64,000 nucleotides of DNA from Carcharhinus amblyrhynchos (taxonomy: Eukaryota). Made by a program: the position numbers and the translations under genes. Shown one piece after another: positions 19,155-54,615 of the stretch (position 1 is its first letter; the number at the start of each line of letters is the position of its first letter). Under the pieces are notes generated by a model that was not told where the DNA came from, ran no database searches, and saw nothing but the letters and a program-made list of their open reading frames with translations. Location of the stretch: the NCBI GenBank assembly GCA_965287045.1, contig OZ336878.1, positions 36,642,001-36,706,000 of the forward strand, written 5' to 3'.

Positions 19155-19227
19155 TGTTTCTGCCTGGTTTTGAACCAGGAATCCTTCACATGTTAGGCGA
19201 ATGTGATAACCACTATGCTGCAGAAAC
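19155..19227 (-). pseudogene. tRNA-Val(AAC) pseudogene
   Basis: 73-nt GTTTCTGCAGCATAGTGGTTATCACATTCGCCTAACATGTGAAGGATTCCTGGTTCAAAACCAGGCAGAAACA, colinear with vertebrate tRNA-Val-AAC; many differences are CpG-type transitions. Confidence 0.8.
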
Positions 19228-26113: not shown

Positions 26114-27685
26114 CTGTTGGTAGAAAAAGAAAGAAAGATGAACATCGAATAAATACCTCTAAATACAGTGAATATCAGGAGTTTTGAAAAAGCTTTTGAC
26201 TTAAAATTTTTCAAATCAGTATAATATTCATTTGTAAATCTTGGAGTATATAATTTAGGATGATGAACTCTAACCCAATTCCTTCACCCCAAAAAAGGGG
26301 GTGAAATAACAATCCTAAATTATTATATGTAGTTAATAGTCCACCATAGCCCTCATTTTATATGGCAATAACACTCTTACATTGAATTGCTGCCTTAGAA
26401 TTACTCCTTTTGACAATCCACATTCCTCTAGATTACAGCGACATAATCTTTACTCGTGTTAGACATTAAAAACACTGAAGAATCTTCTAGTAGTCAGCTG
26501 CAGGTTTTTCCATTTATATTGCTGCTCTCACTATCCTGTTGTCATTAAGGCACTTTTAAGGAGATAAAGCAGACAAGCAGCTGGTTATCGCACAAATCCA
26601 TACATAAAAGCAGCAGCAATTTGAAGACGATATTGTCAACTTTTCACAATCACCATTCACCTATTAATCATGCTTGTTAAACGAATGAAAAACTTCTCCA
26701 TACATGCCAAAACAATTGTATTGTTTATGCCTTGGTTTCAGTGGCAAATATCCTACAGATACATAAAACAAGAACATAACAGAATGCTGCTTTTAAATTA
26801 AAAAAAAGTTTATTGAAAATTTACCACAACCTTAAAAGGGAATTCTTGCAATTTTCTAAAATCTTAGAATTACCAATTATAGTAAAAATTGCAGTTATTT
26901 AGAATTACATAATTACAGAACAGTATTTATCTACTGGACATAACAGGTGTAGAAATAAAAGATTTAGCGATAATGCATTTTATTCTGAATGAGTTGCGTT
27001 ACAAGCAGCTTATCCTTTCTGCAGTATAGTACTTTAACTAAAAATCTGGGAACAGGGTTAGCCTCCTCAGCCACATTGAAGAATCCTTACTGAGACAAGA
27101 GAGGCTAAACTCGAATGTATAATTCAATGTAAAATTCACATACAGAAAGCAAAATAAAAAGAAACAAAAAATGGAAAAAGAGAAAAAGTTAAAGTTTAAA
27201 AAAATCTCCAACAATTAAAATCTGAAAGAATTTGACCACATACCACATAGGCGAGGGGATAGTCGGGAAGGGGGAGTCGGGAAGGGGGAGCCGGGGGGTG
27301 GGGCGGGGGGGGGTTTATAAATCTGATACTCACCCGTGGATCCACCTCATTGTTCTCCAGAGCAGTGTACCTGGTGGCTTTGGTGAGTGTTGAATTTACT
27401 TGGAATCACTTTCTGACTGCACTTCCGGTTCGTAGGGTTTCTGTGTGTGTATTTTACTTCCATACCGGAAGTTAGGTGAGAGGATAGTCGGGAAGGGGGA
27501 GCAGGGGGTATAAAAAGAAGGTAGTGATAGACAGCAGGCAGCGGAGTGAGTGGGGAGCTGAGTGAAAGTTTTAAGGGCTTTGGCTCGCTGGGCTTAGGCG
27601 AGAGCAGGCTTAGAGAAGGTGAGTTGCAGTTTCTATCTTTCCCGGGTTGCGTTTCGGCACATACAAACCCAAGGGAGGTTGGGAC

Positions 27686-28570
27686 ATGGCAGGGGCTATG
27701 GGGAGGAACATAAGCTGTGTTAGGTGCCACATGTGGGAGTTCTTGGAGGCATCACGTCTCCCGAGGGTCCACATCTGCGTTAAGTGTTTAGAGTTGCAGC
27801 GGCTAAGGGCCCGGGTCAGACAACTAGAGGGGCGTTTAGAGGATGCGTTTCTGGTCAGGGAAAATGAAGAGTTAATAGCTAGGAACCATGAGCAAGAGGA
27901 GGTCCCAGGGGCTGAGGAGCAGGATGGGTGGACAACTGTCAAGAGGAAGAAGAAGAATAGTCCCGGTCCTCAGACCTCCCCAGTGGCTCCCCAAGGTTCA
28001 TCGACAGGGGCACAAAAGGATAGACAGGAGGGCCAGAATGACTTAGAGGGACAGAAGGGGGCTGGCAATGTGACAGTGGTAGGGAATGGAAAGGTCAAAG
28101 GAATCGACAGGAGGTTCTGTGGGCAGAGGCGTGACTCCAGGATGGTGGTCTGCCTCCCTACAGCAGGGGTACAGGACATAACGGAAAGGATAGAGGGAAT
28201 TTTGAAAGGGGAGGGGACCCAGGCAGAGGTAATAACACACGCAGGGGAGAGGGACGTAGGAAGGCGGAATAGGGTAGATGTACGTAGGCAATTTAGGGAG
28301 TTGGGGTCCAAACTGAAGAGCAGGACCTCCAGGGTGGCATTCTCTGGGCTGCTGCCTAGTACCAGCAGGGCTAGGAATAACGAGATCATGTAGCTGAATG
28401 CATGGCTGAGGGATTGGTGCAAGGTAGAGGGATTCACTTTTGTAGACCACTGGGAGGTATTTGAGAGAGAAGGGCAACTGTATAGGAGGGATGGGGAAAA
28501 TTTGATTGGGAGAGGGACAAATGTCTTAGCAGGGAGGTTAGCTGGAGTGTTTAGCCAGGGTTTAAACTAA
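27686..28570 (+). pseudogene. CR1 ORF1 (Cys-rich motif, coiled coil, SGNH esterase-like fold); premature TAG at 28391-28393
   Basis: CVRCHMWE...HICVKC, LQRLRARVRQLEGRLE, GIDRRFCG...MVVCLP; the frame continues after the TAG as LNAWLRDWC...GLN*. Confidence 0.8.
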
Positions 28571-28591
28571 TAGGGAGGGGGGGGTGGGGAT

Positions 28592-31477
28592 GTGACTGAT
28601 AGCTCAGTAGACACTGGGGTCAGGAGGGAGTTGGGTGAAAGGGTAGGTTTGGGTGAAAGGAAAATTATCAGGGAGACGGACGGTCTGAGAGGCACTGGTG
28701 GGTTGGACTGCGTCTGTTTCAATGCGCAGAGTGCGACGGGTAAGACAGATGAGCTTAGGGCCTTGATGTTTGTGAGGAAGTTAGATGTGGTGGCAGTAAC
28801 GGAGACGTGGTTACGTGAAGGGTAGGATTGGCAGCTGAACGTTCCTGGGTATAAGTGTTTTAGGTGTGACAGAGGAGGGTTGAAGAGAGGTGGTGGGGTG
28901 GCGTTGTTAGTAAAGGAGCACATCACAGCAGTGCAGAGGGAGGACAATGTGGAGGAGTTAGGGATTGAGTCGCTGTGGGTGGAGTTGAGGAATAAAAAGG
29001 GAGAGATTACGATGCTAGGGGTATACTATAGGCCACCCAACAGCCCAAGGTCAGTGGAGGAAAGTATTTGCAGAGGCATTTTAGATAGGTGCAGAAAGAA
29101 TAAGGTGGTTGTAGTGGGTGACTTTAACCTTCCTGGAGTGGATTGGAAGGTGCCTAGAGCTGGGGGTACGGAGGGAGAGGAGTTTGTAAAGTGTGTGTTG
29201 GAAGGGTCCCTAAAGCAGTACGTAACTAGCCCAACTAGGGAGGGGGCTATACTGGATTTAGTGCTGGGAAATGAGCCGGGGCAGGTGGTTGAGGTTGAGG
29301 TAGGCAAACATGTGGCTAACAGTGACCACAAGTCCGTCTACTTTAGGATAAAAATGGAAAGGGATGAGTGCCGGCCAAAGGGGACGGTTCTGAACTGGGG
29401 GAAGGTGAGCTACAGTCAGATTAGGAGGGAGCTGAAGGATACTGATTGGGGGAGGTTGTTAGCTGGCAAGTCCACGGTTGGTAAGTGGGAGGTTTTTAAG
29501 GGCAAACTGAAAATGTTGCAGGAAAGGCACGTGCTGGTAAAGAGGAAGGATGGGAAAGGCAGGATTAGGGAGCTGTGGATTACAGGGGGTATAGAAGACT
29601 TGGTCAGGAAGAAGAGGGAGGCATATGTTAGGTCGAAACAACTGGGAACGGAGAGTGCGCTGGAGGAATACAGAGAGAGTAGGAGGGAGCTAAAAAGGGG
29701 AGTTAGAAGGGCAAAAAGGGGGCATGAAATGGCCTTGGCCGATAGGATTAAGGAAAATCCAAAAGCATTTTACTCTTATATTAGGAGCAAGAGAGTGGTT
29801 AGAGGGAAAATTGGTCCTCTTAGGGACAAGGGAGGGGAGCTATGTATCGAGACTGAGGGAATGGGGGAGATCCCGAATGAATACTTTGCGTCGGTATTCA
29901 CGAAGGAGAGGGGATTGGTGACGTGTAGTGTCTTGGAGGGAGCTGTAGATCAGTGGAAGGAAATATCCATTACGAGGGAGGAAGTGCTAAGGTTTTTAGG
30001 TAGCATAAAAACGGATAAAGCTCCGGGGCCTGATGGTATTTATCCCAGGCTGCTTAGGGAGGTGAAAGATGAAATTGCTGGGCCTCTGACACAAATCTTT
30101 GTCTCTTCTTTGGACACAGGTGAGGTCCCAGAAGACTGGAGGGTGGCTAATGTGGTACCACTGTTTAAAAAGGGTAGTAGGGATAGCCCTGGTAATTATA
30201 GACCAGTGAGTTTGACATCGGTGGTAGAAAAATTATTGGAAAAAATTCTTAGGGATAGGATGTATGAGCATTTGGAGCGTCGCGATCTGATTAGGGATAC
30301 GCAACATGGCTTTGTTCGGGGGAGGTCTTGCCTTACGAATCTGGTGGAATTCTTCGAGGAGGTGACAAAAACGGTTGGCAATGGGCGAGCCGTTGATGTC
30401 ATCTATATGGATTTCAGTAAGGCATTTGAAAAAGTCCCTCACGGTAGGCTGGTAGAAAAGGTTGAGGCACATGGGATACAAGGACAGGTAGCTAGGTGGA
30501 TCGAAAACTGGCTGGGAAATAGGAGACAGAGAGTAGTTGTCAAGGAGACCTTTTCTGACTGGAGGCCAGTCACCAGTGGTGTGCCGCAGGGCTCAGTACT
30601 GGGACCTCTCCTCTTTGTAGTATATATAAACGACTTGGAAGAGGGTGTACGTGGTGTGATCGGCAAATTTGCAGATGACACCAAGATGGTAGGATTGGCA
30701 GTTACTGAGGAGGACTGTCAGGTGACACAGCAGGATATAGATAGGTTGGTGTATTGGGCAGATAGATGGCAGATGGAATTTAATCCTGATAAATGCGAGG
30801 TGATGCATTTTGGAAGGAATCATGCAGGGACGAGTTATGTGATAAAAGGTAGGCCGATTAAGAGTATAGAGATACAGAGGGACCTGGGAGTGCAGGTGCA
30901 CAACTCTCTGAAGGTGTCGACACAGGTAGAGAAGGTTGTGAAGAAAACTTATGGAATACTAGCCTTTATAGGAAGGGGTATAGAGTATAAGAGCTGCCGT
31001 CTAATGCTTCAGTTGTACAGAACGCTGGTTAGACGGCATTTGGAGTACTGCGTCCAGTTCTGGTCACCTTACTACCAGAAGGACATGGAGACCCTGGAGA
31101 AGGTGCAGAGGAGGTTTACCAGGATGTTGCCTGGCATGGAAGGACTGAGGTACGAGGAAAGGTTGGAGAAACTGGGGCTCTTCTCCTTAGAAAGACGGAG
31201 ATTAAGGGGGGATATGATAGAGGTATATAAAATACTGAAGGGAATAGATAGAGTAAACAGTGGTAGGCTTTTCCCTAGATTGGGGACAATTACGAGAGGT
31301 CACGATCTAAGGGTGAGGGGGGAGAAGTATAATTTGGATATGAGAGGAAGGTTTTTCACGCAGAGGGTCGTGGGGGTATGGAACGTGCTACCGAGTAGGG
31401 TGGTGGAGGCAGGCACGTTGGACTTGTTTAAGATTTACTTAGACAGACACGAGCGAAGCAAGGATGGAGAGTTATAG
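28592..31477 (+). pseudogene. CR1 ORF2 (APE endonuclease + reverse transcriptase); one premature TAG at 28823-28825
   Basis: FNAQS, VTETW, GDFN, SDH endonuclease motifs; PGPDG, YRPVSL, QGSVLGP, FADD RT motifs; 865-aa open stretch 28880-31477. Confidence 0.9.
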
Positions 31478-32039
31478 TAGAGGGTATTAAATAGGGTCAG
31501 AGCCTCGGGACGACACCAGAAATGTAGTTTTATATGTTAACGTATTGTCTTTTTATTCCACAGGGTCGGTCCACCTTGTTGTCAAACAAGGGGCATGCAC
31601 ATGGTGGGTCGTGCGTGGGCTGCTCTTGGAGGTTCCGGGAGTGGCCTAGTACTTCGTGTCGTTGTGTGTGCTTAATCCTGGACCAGCAGATGGGCACTGC
31701 AACAGCTCAGTGACTATCACTGCTAGCTGCGCAGATACATGGATTTGGGCCTGTGTCTGTGGGAGTTTGTGCATTCTCCCTGTGGTTGTGTGGGTTTCCT
31801 CCAGGCGCTCCGGTTTCCTCCCACACCCCAAAGATGTGCTCTTAGGCTGACTGGTGTACCAAATTGACACTATTCTCCCCTGAATCTGGCGACATTAGGG
31901 GTTCCACTCACATACACACAGGGTGGGGTAGGCGTGGGAAGATGCGGCGGCGCGGGCTCGTTGGGCCGAAGGGCCTGTTTCCCGTGCTGGGATGTTCTTT
32001 GTATACTTATAACTGTTACTTTTCAGTGCTAAAGAGGTT

Positions 32040-33920
32040 GAACTTCTTGGAGCTGCACTCATCCAAGCAAGTGGAGAGTATTCCATCACACACTTGAACT
32101 GTGCCTTGCACATGGTAAACAGGCTTTGGGAATTAGGAAGTAAGGTATGTGCCGCAGGATTCCAAGCCTCCAACCTGCTCTTGTAGCCACAACACTTATA
32201 TAGTTAGTCCAGTTCAGTTTCTGACTAATAGCAGCCCCTGCCAGCCCCCCGATGTTGATAGTAATTCCCAAATCACCAATCATTTGTAAAAACCTGAGGA
32301 TAGAGGAGAACAACATCTATCCATTCAGCTGATTACAAAAATCACAATTTAGCTATTTCACAACAGAATACTTACTATTGTTCTCATAACAAAATGAAGC
32401 AAAAACAGATTTGAAGTGGCTCAGGCAAGACAAATCAACACATTTATGTTTTTAACTCCTTCGAATGAAAGCTAAACCCCAAACAAGATGCACTGACTGA
32501 TTTTTTTTCTCTAATAAAATGCCAATTTTTACAAAATCTAATCTGGCCATTGCATTCCAGTATTAAGACCAATGTTTGGTATTTTCCAGATATGGTTTAT
32601 GATGCTGGATGAATCACCTGCAATTGATTGAGGCATCAGAAAAGAATGACAAAGCCCTGTCAACTTTGCAAAGTCGTCCATACCAACATCTGCAAACTTG
32701 TGCCAAAATTAGGGGAGTTGCCCTACAGACCAGTCAGGCGATAGCCTGGCATTGTCTGCAAGGAATAATTTGGAGTATAACTATGCCCAAACACCGCAAT
32801 CACTATCCCTGGGTATATCCTGTCCAGCCTGAAGTGGGGAGGGCAGTGTTGCCTTGGAAGTCCTAAACATCGACTTTGAATTCCACAAAGTCTCACGGCA
32901 TCAGGTCAAACATAGACAAGGAAACCCACTGCTGATTACTGCCTGCAGCCTTCCAATAGTTGATGAAACCAGTCCTTCATGTTGAACACAAATTGGAAGA
33001 GGCATTGAGGTGGCAAGGGCAGAAAATGTACTCTGGTTGGGGGAATCTTAACTTCCATCACCAAAAGTGGCTCAGTAGCATTACTATTGACTGAGCTGGC
33101 AAAGTCTAAGGAGCTAGCTGCTAGACTGGGCCTGCAGCAGGTAGTGAGGGAACCAACAAGTGGGAAAAACATGCTTGGTCTTGTCCTCACCAGTCTGCCT
33201 GCCAAGATGCATTTGTCCATGACAGTATTGGTAGGAATGATTACTGCACAGTCCTTGTGAAGACAAATTCCCATCTTCACATTAAGGATACGCTCCATCA
33301 TGTTGTGAAGCATTACTTGTGGTTAATAGGATAGATTTTGAACAGACATAGCAACTCAAAACTCAGCATCCATGAGACACTGTGGGTCATCATTAGCAGC
33401 GAAATTGTATTCAATCAGAATGTCATGTATGGCCCAGCATATTCCCCATTCTACCATACTGGGGGATCAACCCTCATTCAAAGACAAGTGCAGGAGGGCA
33501 TGCCAGGAGCAGCACCAGGCATCCCAAGAAATGTGGTGTCAACCTGGTGAAGCTACAACCAGGACTACCTGCATGCTAAATAGCTGAAACAGTATATGAT
33601 AGACAAAGCTAAGTAATTCCACAACCAACAGATCAGACCTAAGCTCTACAGTTCTGCCACAACCAGTCATGAATGGTAGTGGACAATTAAACAACTAACT
33701 GCAGGAGGAGGCTCCACAAATATCCTCATCCTCAATGAGGGAGCCCAGTGCTTCAGTGCAAAAGATAAGACATTTGCAACCATCTTCAGCCAGATGTGCC
33801 AAAGTGGATAATCCATTTCAGCTTCCTTCCAAGATCCCCAGCAGGACAGATATCAGCCGTTAGCAAATTTAATTCACTCCATGCGAAATCAAGGCTGAAG
33901 ATGCTAGATACCACAAAGGC
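32040..33920. mobile_element. Fragments of a second CR1/L2-superfamily LINE lineage
   Basis: MEYSPLAWMSAAP-type RT C-terminus on the minus strand (32040-32270) and a degenerate EN region on the plus strand (32620-33920). Confidence 0.6.
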
Positions 33921-41074: not shown

Positions 41075-44000
41075 GATTGAATGTCTTGTTAAGAGGAAAA
41101 AGGAAGCGTATGTAAGGATGAAAAAACAAGGTTCAGTTGGGTTGCTTGAGGGTTACAAGGTAGCTAGGAATGAGTTAAAAAGAGCTTAGGAGAGCTAGGA
41201 GGGGGCATGAGAAGTTCTTGGCGGGTCGGATAAAGGAAAACGCCAAGGCTTTTTGCTCTTACGCGAGAAACAAAAGAATGACCAGGGTGAGGTTAGGGCC
41301 AGTCAAGGATAGTAGTGGGAACTTGTGCATGGAGTCAGAGAAATAGGAGAGGTGTTGAATGAATACTTCTCTTCTGTATTCACTAAGGAGACGGGCCATG
41401 TTTTTGAGGATGAGGTAGATGTTCTGAGGGAAGATGTATTAGCAATTTTGAAAAACCTGAGGGTTGATAAGTCTCCTGGGCCAGATGGGATACATCCTAG
41501 AATACTTTGGGAGGCAAGGATGAGACTGCGGAGCTTTTAGTTTTCATCTTTGCATCCTCACTGTCCACAGGGATTGTGCAAGAGGACTGGAGAGTAGTGA
41601 ATGTTGTTCCTCTCTTCAAGAAAGGAAATAGGAATGATCATGGTAATTATAGGCCAGCTAGTCTTACTTCGGTGGTCGGCAAGTTAATGAAAAGGGTCCT
41701 GAAAGATAGGATTCATGACCATTTGAAAAGATGCAGCTTAATTCGGGATAGTCATCACAGTTTCGTGAGGGGTAAGACCTGCCTCACAAATTTGATTGAA
41801 TTCTTTGAGGAGGTAGCTAAGCGTGTAGACAAAGGTAGAGCACTTGATTTCATATACTTGGATTTTAGTAAGGCATTTGATAAAGTTCCCCATGGTAGGC
41901 TCATGAAGGAAGTAAGGAGGTGTGGGAAAGAAGGAAATTTGGCCGATTAGAAAGTAACTGGCTGTCTCAGAGAGGGTGGTGGTGGAGGGAAAATTTTCAG
42001 ACTGGAGGCCAGTTATCAGCAGTGAACCAGAGGGATCAGTGCTGGGTCCTCTGCTATTTGTGATTTTTATCACCAACTTGGAAGAGGGGGCTGAAGGGTG
42101 GGTTAGTAAATTTGCTGATGACATCAAGATTGGTGGAGTAATGGATGAGGTGGAGGGCTCTTTTGTTTCTGTCTTCACGGAGGAGGACGTGAATAATTTG
42201 CCGGGTGTTAGCGATGGAAAGGTGGTAGGACTGGAGGGTCTTAATGACATTACTGTTACTAGAGAGGTGGTGCGCAACAGACTGGAGGGGCTGATTGTGG
42301 ACAAGTCCCCAGGACCGGATGGAATGCATCCGAGGGTTCTGAAAGAAATGGCGGAGGTGATAGTGGATGCCTTGGTGGTTATTTTCCAGACGTCGCTGGA
42401 TTCCGGGGAAGTGCCGGAGGATTGGAAAACGGCTAATGTTACGCCGTTGTTTAAGAAGGGTGCCAGGCAAAAGGCGGGGAATTACAGGCCGGTTAGTTTA
42501 ACGTCTGTGGTAGGTAAAATGTTAGAATCCGTCATTAAGGAGGAAATTGCGAGGCATCTTGAAGGGAATTGCTTGATAGGGCAGACGCAACACGGTTTCA
42601 TTAAAGGGAAGTCGTGTCTGACAAATTTACTGGAGTTCTATGAGGATGTGTCTAGGGCGGTGGATAGAGGAGAGCCGGTGGATGTGGTCTTTCTGGATTT
42701 TCAGAAGGCGTTTGATAAGGTACCTCACAAGAGGTTACTGCAGAAGGTCAGAGGACATGGAGTTGGGGGTAGGGTGTTAGCGTGGATAGAGGATTGGTTG
42801 TCAAATAGGAGGCAGAGAGTGGGGGTCAATGGGTGCTATTCAGATTGGCGGTTGGTGACTAGTGGGGTGCCCCAGGGGTCGGTGCTGGGGCCTCAGCTAT
42901 TTACCATTTATATAGATGATCTGGAGGAGGGAACCGAGTGTAGGGTGTCGAAATTTGCTGATGACACCAAGATTGGGGGAAAGGCAAATTGTGCGGAGGG
43001 TGTGGAGAGTCTGCAGAAGGATCTAGATAGGCTGGGCGAATGGGCCAGGAAATGGCAAATGGAATTTAATGTTGGCAAGTGTGAGGTGGTCCACTTTGGT
43101 AGGAAGAATGGTAGGAAGGACTATTACTTACGTGGCGAAAAACTGCAGCAGGCGACGGTGCAGAGGGACCTCGGGGTCCTTGTGCATGAGTCGCAAAAAC
43201 CCAGCCTGCAGGTGCAGCAGGTGGTCAGGAAGGCGAATGGGATGCTGGCCTTCATAGCGAGGGGGATTGAATATAAAAGTAGGGAGGTCTTGCTGCAGCT
43301 GTATAGGGCACTGGTGAGGCCGCAGCTGGAGTACTGTGTGCAGTTTTGGGCGCCGCACCTGCGCAAGGATATTTTGGCCTTGGAGGGAGTGCAGAGGAGG
43401 TTTACTAGGCTGATACCGGAGTTGAGGGGGTTGAGCTATGAGGAGAGGCTGAATAAACTAGGCTTGTACTCGTTAGAGTTTAGAAGAATGAGGGGAGATC
43501 TCATTGAGACGTATAAGATGATGAATGGGATGGATAGGATAGAGGTGGAAAGACTCTTCCCGCTCAAAAAAGACAGTAGGACTAGGGGGCACAGCCTCAA
43601 GATAAAGGGGGGGCGGTTCAGAACGGAGTTGAGGAGGAACTTCTTCACTCAAAGGGTGGTGAATCTCTGGAATTCTCTGCCCGTTGAAGTGGTGGAGGCT
43701 GCCTCGCTAAATATTTTTAAGAAGCGGGTTGATGGGTTTTTGATAAGAGAGGGGATTAAGGGTTATGGGGAGAGGGCGGGAAAGTGGAACTGAGCCACGA
43801 CAGATCAGCCATGATCTTATTGAATGGCGGGGCAGGCTCGAAGGGCCAGATGGCCTACTCCTGCTCCTATTTCTTATGTTCTTATGTTCTTATGTTCTCT
43901 TGTAGGCTGCAAAGAGACATCTATAGGATGCAGAGCTGGGCAGAAAGTGGCAGATGGAGTTTAACTCTGATAACTGTGAGGTGATTCATTCTGGTAGGAC

Positions 44001-48321: not shown

Positions 48322-49526
48322 AAAAGGGCTAAGGAGTAAGGAGAGCTTTCATGGAGTTGGTGGCAGGCACAAAAAGTTTCCCCCAGTTTTCCATACTTTG
48401 ACAAGTGCTGGAAATACTCAGCAGGTCTGGCAACATCTGTGGTGTGAGAAACAGATTTCTCATTCTGACTTTACAGAGGGTGGTGAGTTTTGGAACTCGC
48501 TGCCCCATAGCACGGTGAAGTCTGAATCGTTTCAGAAGAATGTATTTCTAAAATTTTAAAAAAGGGATATGGGGAGCTGGTAAGCAGGTGGTTTTCAGAC
48601 CAGCTATGATCTGATTGAATGGAGAACTGAATTTGCCTACTTTTGGTCCTCATTCAAGTGTTCCTCAGATACTCTGTCAGAAAGTTGGTGCAGACTTGAT
48701 GGGCTGAATGACCTCCTGCACTGTAGGGAATCTATGGTTCTATGAAATCAACAGCTTGTTTTTCAAAAAAAATCCTCAGTCGGCACAGTTTTGGGCGCCG
48801 CACCTGCACAAAGATATTTTGGCCTTGGAGGGAGTGCAGAGGAGGTTTACTAGGCTGATACCGGAGTTGAGGGGGTTGAGCTATGAGGAGAGGCTGAATA
48901 AACTGGGCTTGTACTCGTTAGAGTTTCGAAGAATGAGGGGAGATCTCATTGAGACGTATAAGATGATGAATGGGATGGATAGGATAGAGGTGGAGAGACT
49001 CTTCCTGCTCAAAAAAGACAGTAGGACTAGGGGGCACAGCCTCAAGATAAAAGGGGGGCGGTTTAGAACGGAGTTGAGGAGGAACTTCTTCACTCAAAGG
49101 GTGGTGAATCTCTGGAATTCTCTGCCCATTGAAGTGGTGGAGGCTGCCTCGCTAAACATTTTTAAGACGCGGATTGATGGGTTTTTGATAAGAGAGGGGA
49201 TTAAGGGTTATGGGGAGAGGGCGGGAAAGTGGAACTGAGCCGCGACAGATCAGCCATGATCTTATTGAATGGCGGGGCAGGCTCGAAGGGCTAGTTGGCC
49301 TACTCCTGCTCCTATTTCTTATGTTCTAATAGAGATCTGATCTATTTGATAATACGTAAGATTACGTAAAGGCAGAATTACACTGAGAAATCTGTTTCTC
49401 ACATACCACAGATGTTGCCAGACTTGCTGAGTATTTCCAGCGCTTGTCAAATTATGTAACACTGGAGGAAGCTTTTCATACCTGCCACCAATTCTATGAA
49501 AACTCTTTCTTACTACTTAGCCCTTT
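48322..49526. repeat. Long imperfect inverted repeat (arms 48322-48474 and 49366-49526)
   Basis: The arms are reverse complements over about 155 bp. Confidence 0.85.
48786..49327 (+). mobile_element. Young CR1 3' fragment (COA7 intron 1)
   Basis: Nearly identical to the 3' part of the 42163-43896 copy. Confidence 0.9.
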
Positions 49527-50000
49527 CAAATATACATCTAATTCTCTTTTGCCAGTTGTAACTGATTGAAGAAACCATAAAATATAGGAGCAGAATTAGG
49601 TCATTTGGCCCATGTCTGCTCCACCATTCAATCCATGGCTGATAAGTTTCTCAACCCCATTCTCCTGCCTTTTACCTTTAATCCCCTTACCAACCAAGAA
49701 CATGTCTATCTCTGTTTTAAATATACTCAATGACCCAGCCTTCTGTGACAATGAATTCCATAGATTCACTGCCCTCTGGCTGAAAAAACTGAAGATTTGT
49801 ATGTGTCCATTTCCTGTAAACTCTTTATAGATAAGGACATCATATAAAATGATATATAAATGCCATTCTTGGCAAGAGGCTTTAATTACAGGATGTTAAA
49901 TTCATATAAGCAATTTTCATTATGAATGTGGACAAGGAAATTAATGTTGGAAAATATAAAAATTACATTATTCTATCTCTTCATCCAAGTCATCAATATA

Positions 50001-50520
50001 GATATTTTGGCCTTGGAGGGAGTGCAGAGGAGGTTTACTAGGATGATGCCGGAGTTGAGGGGGTTGAGCTATGAGGAGAGGCTGAATAAATTAGGCTTGT
50101 ACTCGTTAGAGTTTAGAAGAATGAGGGGAGATCTCATTGAGACGTATAAGATGATGAATGGGATGGATAGGATAGAGGTGGAGAGACTCTTCCCGCTCAG
50201 AAAGGACAGTAGGACTAGGGGGCACAGCCTCAAGATAAAGGGGGGGCGGTTTAGAACGGAGTTGAGGAGGAACTTCTTCACTCAAAGGGTGGTGAATCTC
50301 TGGAATTCTCTGCCCGTTGAAGTGGTGGAGGCTACCTCGCTAAATATTTTTAAGATGCGGGTTGATGGGTTTTTGATAAGAGAGGGGATTAAGGGTTATG
50401 GGGCGAGGGCGGGAATGTGGAACTGAGCCACAACAGCTCAGCCATGATCTTATTGAATGGCGGGGCAGGCTCGAAGGGCTAGTTGGCCTACTCCTGCTCC
50501 TATTTCTTATGTTCTTATGT
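50001..50520 (+). mobile_element. Young CR1 3' fragment inserted into an older minus-strand CR1
   Basis: Same subfamily sequence and tail. Confidence 0.9.
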
Positions 50521-52679: not shown

Positions 52680-54615
52680 TAGTACTGAAGACTTGTGCTC
52701 CAGAATTTGCTGTGACTCTAGCCAATCTGTTCCAATACAGTAACACAGTCATCTCCCTGGCAATGTGAAAAATTGCCCAGGTCTGTCCTGTGCAGAAAAA
52801 GCAAGACAAATCCAACCCAGCCATTTACCACCCCGTCAGTTTACTCTTGATCATCAGTAAAATGATGGAAGGGGTCTTCAACAGTGCAATCCAGCCACAT
52901 CTGTTTAGCAATAACCTGCTCACTGACACTCAGTTTGGGTCCTGCGAGGGCCATTCAGCACCTGACCTCATAACAGCCTTGATTCAAACATGGACGAAAG
53001 AGCTGAATTCTAGAGGAAAGGTGAGGGTGACTGCCCTTGACCAAGTGTGGCATGAAGGAACCTAACAAAACTGCAATAAGTGGGAATCAGGAAAAAAACT
53101 CTTCACTGGTTGGGGTCATACCTAACAGGAAGGAAGATGGTTGTAGTTGTTGGAAGTCAGTCATCGTAAATCCAGGACATCACTGCAGGAGTTCCTCAGG
53201 GAATATCCTTGGCCAAACCATCTTCAGTTGCTTTATCAATGACCTTCCTTCCATTGTAAGGTCAGGAGTAGGGAAGTTCAGTAATGTTTGCACAATGTTC
53301 AGCATGATTTGCAGCAGATATTGAAGCAGTCCACGTCAAAATGCAGGAAGACCTGAACAATACCCAGGTTTGGGCTGATAATTAACATTTGTGCCATACT
53401 AGTGCCAGGCGATGACCATCTCCAACAAGAGAAAATCTAATCATATCCCCTTGGCATCCAATGGCATTACAATCAATAACTTACATAAGAACATAAGAAA
53501 TAGGAGCAGGAGTAGGCCATCTAGCCCTTTGAGCCTGCCCCGCCATTCAATAAGATCATGGCTGATCTGTCATGGCTCAGTTCCACATTCCCGCCCTCTC
53601 CCCATAACCCTTAATCCCCTCGCTTATCAAAAACCCATCAACCCGCGTCTTAAAAATATTTAGCGAGGCAGCGTCCACCACTTCAACGGGCAGAGAATTC
53701 CAGAGATTCACCACCCTTTGAGTGAAGAAGTTCCTCCTCAACTCCGTTCTAAACCGCCCCCCCTTTATCTTGAGGCTGTGCCCCCTAGTCCTACTGTCCT
53801 TTCTGAGCGGGAAGAGTCTCTCCACCTCTATCCTATCCATCCCATTCATCATCTTATATGTCTCAATGAGATCTCCCCTCATTCTTCTAAACTCTAACGA
53901 GTACAAGTCTAGTTTATTCAGCCTCTCCTCATAGCTCAACCTTTTCAACCCATTATTAATATCCTGGCAGTTACGATTGATCAGAAACAAGCCAGATAAA
54001 TACTGTGGACACAAAAGTAGGTCAAAAGCTAGGAATCCTGTGGCAAGTAACTCATCTCCTGACTCCCCAAAGCCTGTCCACAATCTACAAGGCACAAGTA
54101 AGGAATGTGATGGAATACATTCCACTTACCTGGATGAGTGCAGCTCCAATAACACTAAAGAAGCTTGATACTATCCAGGATAAAACAGCCTGCTTGAATG
54201 GCATTCCTTCTGCAAATATTCAATCCCTCTACCACCAACAAACAATGGCAGCCATGTGTACCATCTATAAGGTGCACTGCAGGAATTCCCCAAGGCTACG
54301 TCAACAGCACCTTCCAAACCCATGACCGTTACCATCCAGAAGGACAAGAGCAGCAGATACATGGGAACAGCACTACCAGGATGTTCCCCTCCAAGCCACA
54401 CACCATCTTAACTTGGAAATATATCACCTTTCCATCACTGTCATTGGGTCAAAATCCTGAAACTCCATCTTTAACAGGACTCTGCGTGCACCTATATCAA
54501 ATGGACTGCATCATTTTAAGAAGGCAGTTCACCACCACCACTACCTCAGGGACAATTAGGGTTGGGCAATGAATGCTGGCCCAGCCAGTGAAGCCCAAAT
54601 CCCATGAATAAAAAG
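52680..54615 (+). mobile_element. Second-lineage CR1/L2-superfamily LINE 3' half in COA7 intron 2
   Basis: KQDKSNPAIYHPVSLL, FINDLPS, YKAQVRNVMEY peptides; 3' end gggcaatgaatgctggcccagccagtgaagcccaaatcccatgaataaaaa. Confidence 0.75.
53483..53942 (-). mobile_element. Young CR1 3' fragment (COA7 intron 2, antisense)
   Basis: Reverse complement of the same subfamily; cataagaa tail repeats at the left end. Confidence 0.9.

What the first reader, a model, noticed from the sequence alone, without database searches (positions are those of the whole stretch)
27619..31563. Consensus intron brackets both ORFs of the full-length CR1 LINE
Seen: a perfect donor AAG|GTGAGT (GT at 27619-27620) lies 67 nt before the ORF1 ATG. 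A textbook acceptor lies 86 nt after the ORF2 stop: branch-like TTAAC (31537-31541), then tgtctttttattccaCAG|G (31563). Inference: splicing would remove ORF1 and ORF2 and join the 5' UTR to the long 3' UTR, which keeps the RT-recognition tail. The LINE could therefore make its own short non-autonomous, SINE-like RNA or self-attenuate, much like a retroviral spliced message. The downstream exon also has a 26-codon ATG ORF (31595-31675, MHMVGRAWAALGGSGSGLVLRVVVCA) of unknown significance.
Basis: partly seen in the sequence, partly recalled or inferred. Interest (0 to 1): 0.7.

Follow-up and report, generated by a model that had tools for sequence, protein, structure and literature searches.

The report
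LINE splice signals, no spliced offspring
A family of jumping genes, probably from a shark, carries splice signals on both sides of its two protein-coding regions, but none of its roughly 5,500 genomic copies has the spliced form, so the signals are likely used rarely or for something other than making a short mobile element.

Summary
In detail: donor GT at 27619, branch/pyrimidine tract/AG ending at 31563, in a full-length but doubly stop-interrupted CR1 LINE (27248-32002). Both sites are family features. Copies that begin at the acceptor look like ordinary 5' truncations. The donor is ancestral but dispensable (lost in two ways; 3 of 11 typed full-length copies lack it and keep the acceptor). 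Against plain chance: the acceptor keeps its consensus across lineages up to about 25% apart, and on both sides UTR conservation changes at the splice signal. The 3' exon holds a conserved hairpin and a decayed V-SINE; the 26-codon ORF is lineage-limited. RNA use is untested. Best reading: two separately kept cryptic signals in an RNA that is copied unspliced, like L1's retained donor; a regulated, non-mobile spliced RNA is not excluded. This scan noted the acceptor, hairpin and captured SINE before at other copies.

The parts
27248..32002 (+). Full-length CR1-clade LINE copy, defective (two premature stops)
   Evidence: Ends from sister loci; Pfam RVT_1 and Exo_endo_phos_2; (TTCTTTG)n-type tail in sisters
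27248..27515 (+). 5' promoter-like monomer region: tail of one monomer with a TATA-like box, then a full monomer ending in TATAAAA (27509-27515)
   Evidence: Self-alignment 27248 to 27473; 29 of 60 fetched 5'-bearing copies begin at 27345-27351; promoter role inferred
27345..27618 (+). Putative 5' exon (5' UTR up to the donor); its last 46 nt are the most conserved long stretch tested at the 5' end
   Evidence: 0.039 substitutions per site between 8 subfamily groups vs 0.105 in ORF1
27616..27624 (+). Donor consensus AAG|GTGAGT
   Evidence: 148 unspliced matches in the genome; lost in two ways in sister lineages
27686..28570 (+). ORF1, esterase type, premature stop at 28391-28393
   Evidence: Match to PDB 4c1b ORF1 protein, E 4.7e-05
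28574..31477 (+). ORF2 frame (endonuclease and reverse transcriptase), premature stop at 28823-28825; longest ATG ORF 29012-31477
31537..31563 (+). Branch-like TTAAC, pyrimidine tract and CAG acceptor
   Evidence: 265 unspliced matches of this subfamily; kept across lineages
31552..31557 (-). AATAAA on the opposite strand, inside the pyrimidine tract
   Evidence: AATAAA 39, ATTAAA 23, AGTAAA 20, other 5, none 13 of 100 copies
31568..31685 (+). Predicted three-stem RNA domain with a long hairpin at the start of the 3' exon
   Evidence: z -4.07; 97.1% of cells paired in 34 copies, only 3 of 41 pairs with two-sided change
31595..31675 (+). 26-codon ATG ORF, lineage-limited, likely incidental
   Evidence: ATG in 28 of 29 close copies but 10 of 34 across lineages
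31698..32002 (+). Decayed tRNA-headed V-type SINE with LINE-type tail, forming the distal 3' UTR
   Evidence: End-to-end alignment with a free SINE copy in L295, with a gap over its B-box region; the names V-SINE and HE1 are recalled and from the table in PMC3747384
25948..26113 (-). Internal exon of the host gene (ZYG11B-like); the LINE lies antisense, upstream of this exon's acceptor
   Evidence: Splice signals and open frame; neighbouring exon matches ZYG11B, E 2e-92; the upstream host exon was not mapped

Best explanation
The donor and the acceptor are inherited, family-wide splice-type signals of a CR1 LINE whose genomic copies are all unspliced between them, so they are likely two separately kept cryptic signals and not an intron that is routinely cut out in the germ line. 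Shown: both motifs are family features, no junction copy exists, the donor can be lost. Inferred: the donor sits at the end of a conserved 5' leader and would act, if at all, as a promoter-proximal U1 site; the acceptor marks the start of a conserved 3' RNA module (hairpin plus decayed V-SINE plus tail) and is likely kept as a binding site for 3' splice-site factors or as part of that module. Splicing between them is predicted to be rare, and its product a dead end.
For: No junction copy: 0 with up to 2 mismatches, 0 with two gapped patterns, against 148 unspliced donors, 265 unspliced acceptors and 5504 copies of the 3' exon anchor (15 control matches). All 38 genomic places where AAG or GAG precedes the 3' exon were read: 18 are intact copies with a point change, 17 begin at the acceptor with unrelated flank, 3 are other cases; none carries the 5' exon. 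Acceptor-start copies have target-site duplications of 4 nt or more in 13 of 27, other truncated copies in 21 of 35, mismatched pairs in 27%. Of 40 places with a non-T at donor +2, 32 were read: 30 are donor-less sister copies, 1 a GC change, 1 a small duplication; none is spliced. The 20 donor-less rows of the tree lie in one supported clade of 28 and include an all-donor-less clade of 9; every donor-less copy that reaches its 3' UTR keeps the acceptor. Precedent: human L1 keeps a conserved, rarely used donor that overlaps a promoter element (PMC5860796, discussion).
Against: Conservation changes at the splice signals on both sides, as it would for two selected exons: 5' exon end 0.039, donor 0.055, next 48 nt 0.234; stop-to-branch 0.279, branch and pyrimidine tract 0.139, 3' exon 0.112. 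The acceptor varies as a working site would: position -4 is G in 49 and A in 39 of 88 copies, -3 is C or T, and lineages up to about 25% apart keep tract and AG. The donor is ancestral (old copy L341) and kept in 8 of 11 full-length copies typed in the unbiased sample; four copies of a lineage that I expected to be donor-less have it. Absence from the genome shows only that the spliced RNA is not copied, not that it is not made.
Confidence: 0.55

Rival explanations
1. Regulated splicing is real: in some tissues the element is spliced into a roughly 0.7 kb non-coding RNA (5' leader, hairpin, V domain, tail) that lowers its own output or has a job of its own, but is not copied into DNA.
For: Conservation edges coincide with both splice signals; consensus-respecting variation at the acceptor; 31563 is the only strong sense-strand acceptor downstream of the donor by the criterion; structured 3' exon; distance from acceptor to exon anchor is 4, 5, 7, 8 or 10 nt, which fits a non-coding exon.
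Against: The product keeps the tail that LINE proteins of the stringent type recognise (PMC4176376, abstract, zebrafish L2 elements), yet 0 of 5504 copies show it; donor-less lineages spread as full-length copies and keep the conserved leader and acceptor.
Confidence: 0.25
2. The motifs are relics or by-products: the 3' module was captured with the end of an intron, and what selection keeps is something else that overlaps it (the antisense polyadenylation-like hexamer, a U-rich tract, the leader).
For: 82 of 100 copies read AATAAA, ATTAAA or AGTAAA on the opposite strand within the tract; the distal UTR is a captured SINE; some old lineages have a donor-like GTAA 50-130 nt before the acceptor, like a small intron remnant; the AG itself is no better kept than the exon after it.
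Against: Branch-like motif, tract and YAG|G persist together through insertions and deletions on both sides; pairing of the acceptor with the V domain, seen in one fold, is absent in older lineages that still keep the acceptor.
Confidence: 0.15
3. One reading: splicing yields a short SINE-like RNA that the LINE proteins copy back into the genome.
For: The anatomy would allow it; 17 copies begin exactly at the acceptor after AAG or GAG.
Against: None of these carries 5' exon sequence; in clear cases the AAG is duplicated target DNA (L215, L231); 17 is within what the local truncation density predicts (12 expected, P 0.10). Junction patterns find nothing.
Confidence: 0.04

Closest known systems
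Human L1 cryptic splice sites and SpIREs (PMC5860796; abstract, section 7 and first part of the discussion read)
   Same: A conserved 5' UTR donor in a LINE RNA that must stay unspliced; most transcripts unspliced; sites thought to be kept for overlapping roles.
   Different: L1 splices are within the 5' UTR or into ORF1 and left 131 genomic copies among 6,609 full-length L1s; here the candidate intron spans both ORFs and left none.
Bipartite non-autonomous LINEs (PMC5786205; passages read)
   Same: The predicted product would be a 5' UTR joined to a 3' UTR.
   Different: Those arise by internal deletion and are reported for RTE, Ingi, Vingi and R2 only; here no such family was found. Eight internally rearranged copies read have different breakpoints, none at these sites.
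Canonical vertebrate CR1 with esterase ORF1 (PMC13343379; passages read); HER1 LINE with HE1 V-SINE of sharks and rays (table row in PMC3747384; original papers not seen)
   Same: Esterase ORF1, endonuclease-RT ORF2, microsatellite-type tail, tail shared with a free SINE.
   Different: A 525-nt composite 3' UTR with acceptor, hairpin and decayed SINE; the word stem 'splic' does not occur in the main text of PMC13343379. Identity with HER1 itself was not tested.
Spliced subgenomic or regulatory RNAs of retroviruses, gypsy and P elements (recalled, no call)
   Same: A 5' leader donor joined to a distal acceptor, skipping the main ORFs.
   Different: There the 3' exon encodes a protein or the splice is shown in RNA; here the 3' exon has no conserved frame and no spliced RNA has been seen.

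Membership tests
CR1-clade LINE | ORF2 with apurinic-type endonuclease and reverse transcriptase | tested here: met
   Pfam PF14529 and PF00078
CR1-clade LINE | Esterase-type ORF1 | tested here: met
   PDB 4c1b, E 4.7e-05; Pfam gave no hit on the interrupted pieces
CR1-clade LINE | Fixed 3' end with short-repeat tail, frequent 5' truncation, short target-site duplications | tested here: met
CR1-clade LINE | RT places within CR1 on a tree with reference clades | not tested
   Only a within-family tree was built; 56% identity to another LINE ORF2 in the window
SpIRE-type spliced retrocopy system | Genomic copies with an exact donor-acceptor junction | tested here: not met
   0 against 5504
SpIRE-type spliced retrocopy system | Conserved donor and acceptor in the LINE RNA | tested here: met
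   the donor is lost in some lineages
SpIRE-type spliced retrocopy system | Spliced RNA detected | tested here: inconclusive
   One laying of four contig sets not on record as RNA; 15 of 33 joints shown, none at these sites
Bipartite non-autonomous LINE | Multi-copy family of 5' UTR joined to 3' UTR at a shared breakpoint | tested here: not met
Spliceosomal (U2) intron | Consensus donor, branch site, pyrimidine tract and YAG | tested here: met
   no MaxEnt or SpliceAI score could be run
Spliceosomal (U2) intron | Excision shown in RNA or in processed copies | tested here: inconclusive
   Processed copies absent; RNA not available

The most novel reading that the evidence does not exclude
This CR1 lineage treats its whole coding region as an intron: splicing switches the transcript from transposition template to a selected, non-mobile 0.7 kb RNA made of the conserved leader, a long hairpin (possibly a small-RNA precursor) and a SINE V domain. 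That would be a LINE that encodes its own spliced regulatory RNA.
Probability: 0.2. Interest if true: 0.75.

Novelty: new variant of a known kind. Interest (0 to 1): 0.35.

Why it matters
If the splice were used, a LINE would carry a built-in switch between copying itself and making a structured non-coding RNA, which was not found described for CR1 elements in my searches, and it would offer a route from LINE to SINE-like elements by splicing. The genome shows that the second route was not taken here. What remains is a testable puzzle: why an RNA that must stay unspliced has kept a consensus acceptor through lineages up to about 25% apart.

Tried and rejected
RNA: no RNA holder listed (15 runs, none on record as RNA). 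Four contig sets guessed to be RNA were laid once: 15 of 33 joints were shown, none from 27618 to 31564, and listed contigs span the donor unspliced; this counts neither for nor against. Exon trapping (host exons spliced onto the acceptor and copied): no support; duplications sit right at the junction in 13 of 27, and the three longest upstream open frames read like repeat or non-coding DNA. A sharp stop at the acceptor or at the branch point: not supported; 5' ends are spread over about 60 nt. A 41-58 nt mini-intron from the donor to the AG before the ORF1 ATG: no spliced copy in 32 of 40 places read. Acceptor kept by pairing with the V domain: older lineages lack the partner. Escape from HUSH by looking like an intron: the passages read in PMC8770142 report that spliced stuffer sequences flanked by splice signals did not protect. 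Known RNA family: no Rfam match at E up to 1 in 27200-32100. Peptide role of the 26-codon ORF: ATG in 10 of 34. First truncation count (18 of 46) used too small a reference panel and was redone. Three rows of the tree (L136, L137, L139) were mislabelled donor-less by my script; they have GAG|GTGAGT. The V-SINE paper PMC155270 is not held. Not covered by the patterns: the weaker donor-like site at 27383, junctions to other acceptors whose second base is T, and 3' exon starts of 8 or 10 nt (4 of 88 copies).
Full report
1. Observation. All coordinates are right. The element is a full-length CR1-type LINE, 27248-32002, with an esterase-type ORF1 and an endonuclease-RT ORF2. This copy has premature stops at 28391-28393 and 28823-28825. 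It lies antisense to a ZYG11B-like gene, upstream of an internal exon at 26113-25948; the upstream host exon was not mapped, so the intronic position is likely and not shown. The sense-strand splice signals therefore cannot act on the host transcript. That the organism is a shark is inferred from its repeats and from earlier notes of the scan; no call names it.

2. The sites are family features. AG|GTGAGT is kept in 27 of 29 close 5' copies and the acceptor's CAG|G in 29 of 29 close 3' copies (these were picked by likeness to queries that cover the sites). With up to 2 mismatches the 2.9 Gb genome holds 148 unspliced donors and 265 unspliced acceptors of this subfamily.

3. The genomic junction test fails. 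The predicted junction has 0 matches with up to 2 mismatches. Because the first bases of the 3' exon differ among subfamilies, I repeated the test with gapped patterns: 0. An anchor 4-10 nt into the 3' exon has 5504 matches (15 for the control pattern). All 38 places where AAG or GAG precedes the exon by the distances seen in 84 of 88 typed copies were read: 18 intact copies with a point change, 17 that begin at the acceptor with unrelated flank, 3 others; none has 5' exon sequence. The spliced form is thus under about 0.06% of copied templates of that length. For comparison, L1 splices left 131 of 6,609 full-length copies (PMC5860796, section 7), though most of those are copied in cis, which this product could not be.

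4. Copies that begin at the acceptor first looked like spliced products. They carry target-site duplications of 4 nt or more in 13 of 27 cases, against 21 of 35 for other truncated copies and 27% for mismatched pairs; in L215 and L231 the AAG is part of the duplication. Their number fits the local truncation density (12 expected, 17 seen, P 0.10). That density is itself raised: in the first 100 listed copies of contig C1 (4 tandem or duplicate rows dropped), 16 of the 45 ends within 500 nt fall in the first 60 nt upstream of the anchor (P 4e-5); the excess is clear in older lineages (11 of 22) and not significant in younger ones (5 of 23, P 0.13). There is no downstream control, so this zone is unexplained.

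5. The donor is ancestral but dispensable. Of 40 places with a non-T at +2, 32 were read and 30 are donor-less sister copies, by loss of the T or by two substitutions. In a tree of 60 rows the 20 donor-less copies sit in one supported clade of 28, with an all-donor-less clade of 9 whose end branches are as short as those of the window's group (three other rows were mislabelled by my script). Those that reach the 3' UTR keep the acceptor. Against my expectation, the unbiased sample shows the donor in 8 of 11 full-length copies typed, including an old copy and four of a lineage that I took for donor-less (9 of 35 long copies were not typed).

6. Evidence that the signals are not mere chance. Between 8 subfamily groups the last 46 nt before the donor differ by 0.039 per site, the donor by 0.055, the next 48 nt by 0.234 with many gaps, ORF1 by 0.105. 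Between 7 lineages the stretch from stop to branch differs by 0.279, branch and tract by 0.139, the first 113 nt of the 3' exon by 0.112, the V domain by 0.053. The acceptor varies at -4 (G 49, A 39 of 88) and -3 (C 86, T 2) and keeps tract and AG in lineages up to about 25% from the window, through indels on both sides. The five bases around the AG are not better kept than the exon after them (0.171), the lineages are few and related, and donor-less lineages keep the conserved leader, so other constraints may explain the edges. The tract reads AATAAA or a near variant on the other strand in 82 of 100 copies.

7. The 3' exon. It starts with a predicted three-stem domain (31568-31685; z -4.07); 97.1% of cells pair in 34 copies chosen across lineages, but only 3 of 41 pairs show a two-sided change, so support is moderate. 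No Rfam family matches. From 31698 it aligns end to end with a free tRNA-headed SINE of this genome, with a gap over the B-box region. The 26-codon ORF keeps its ATG in 28 of 29 close copies but 10 of 34 across lineages, and the distance from acceptor to exon varies by non-multiples of three: no conserved coding role.

8. RNA. No run on record as RNA holds the element; the one laying obtained is uninformative. Whether the splice happens is open.

9. Mechanism. Most likely (0.55) the copied RNA is unspliced and the two signals are kept separately: a dispensable donor at the end of the leader, as with L1's retained donor (PMC5860796, first part of the discussion), and an acceptor at the head of a conserved 3' module. 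A regulated, non-mobile spliced RNA (0.25) fits the conservation edges but must explain why a tail-bearing RNA is never copied, given tail recognition by stringent LINE proteins (PMC4176376, abstract only; shown for zebrafish L2, assumed here). Relic or overlap (0.15) and the mobile SINE-like product (0.04) follow.

10. Print and earlier notes. Seven paper searches listed nothing on splicing of CR1 elements across both ORFs; I saw listings only, apart from passages or sections of PMC5860796, PMC3747384, PMC13343379, PMC6887750, PMC5786205, PMC8770142 and the abstract of PMC4176376. The original HER1/HE1 papers, Repbase entries and supplements were not seen and may describe this UTR. The scan's notes already cover the acceptor, hairpin and captured SINE at other copies. 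New here are the pairing with the donor, the genome-wide negative, the donor losses and the truncation zone. Interest 0.35.

Noticed in passing
window 27248-27515: 5' monomer repeat ending in a TATA-like box; 29 of 60 fetched copies begin at 27345-27351, about 30 nt after the TATA-like box of the preceding monomer, and some carry two monomers. Resembles a tandem-promoter way of keeping the 5' end.
   Followed up: partly
window 27330-27336, minus strand: Antisense donor-like site at 27333, present in 11 of 16 aligned rows. In this copy it points in the host gene's direction, 1.2 kb upstream of the host acceptor at 26114, so an antisense promoter could make LINE-ZYG11B chimeric RNA.
   Followed up: partly
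window 31552-31557, minus strand: AATAAA in the host gene's direction; a possible premature polyadenylation signal for the host transcript.
   Followed up: no
window 31508-31567 and sister loci L237-L336: 5' ends of truncated copies are about four times denser over the branch site, tract and acceptor than further upstream, mainly in older lineages. Unexplained.
   Followed up: partly
window 28568-28800: The ORF2 frame follows ORF1 in the same frame after two stops (TAA TAG) with no ATG before the first endonuclease motif in this copy; how ORF2 is started is unclear.
   Followed up: no
L261, L273, L260, L299, L302 (3' UTR): Old lineages have a donor-like GTAA or a 90-nt longer spacer before the acceptor, like a small intron remnant.
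   Followed up: partly
L221, L269 (3' UTR): These old copies keep more of the SINE head's B-box region than the window copy, which shows stepwise decay of the captured SINE promoter.
   Followed up: partly
window 19155-19227, minus strand: ARAGORN calls a tRNA-Val-like gene; may be a SINE head.
   Followed up: no
window 42141-43793, 268-675, 48708-50426, 53577-53882: Several copies of a second LINE family, 56% identical in ORF2 to this one.
   Followed up: no
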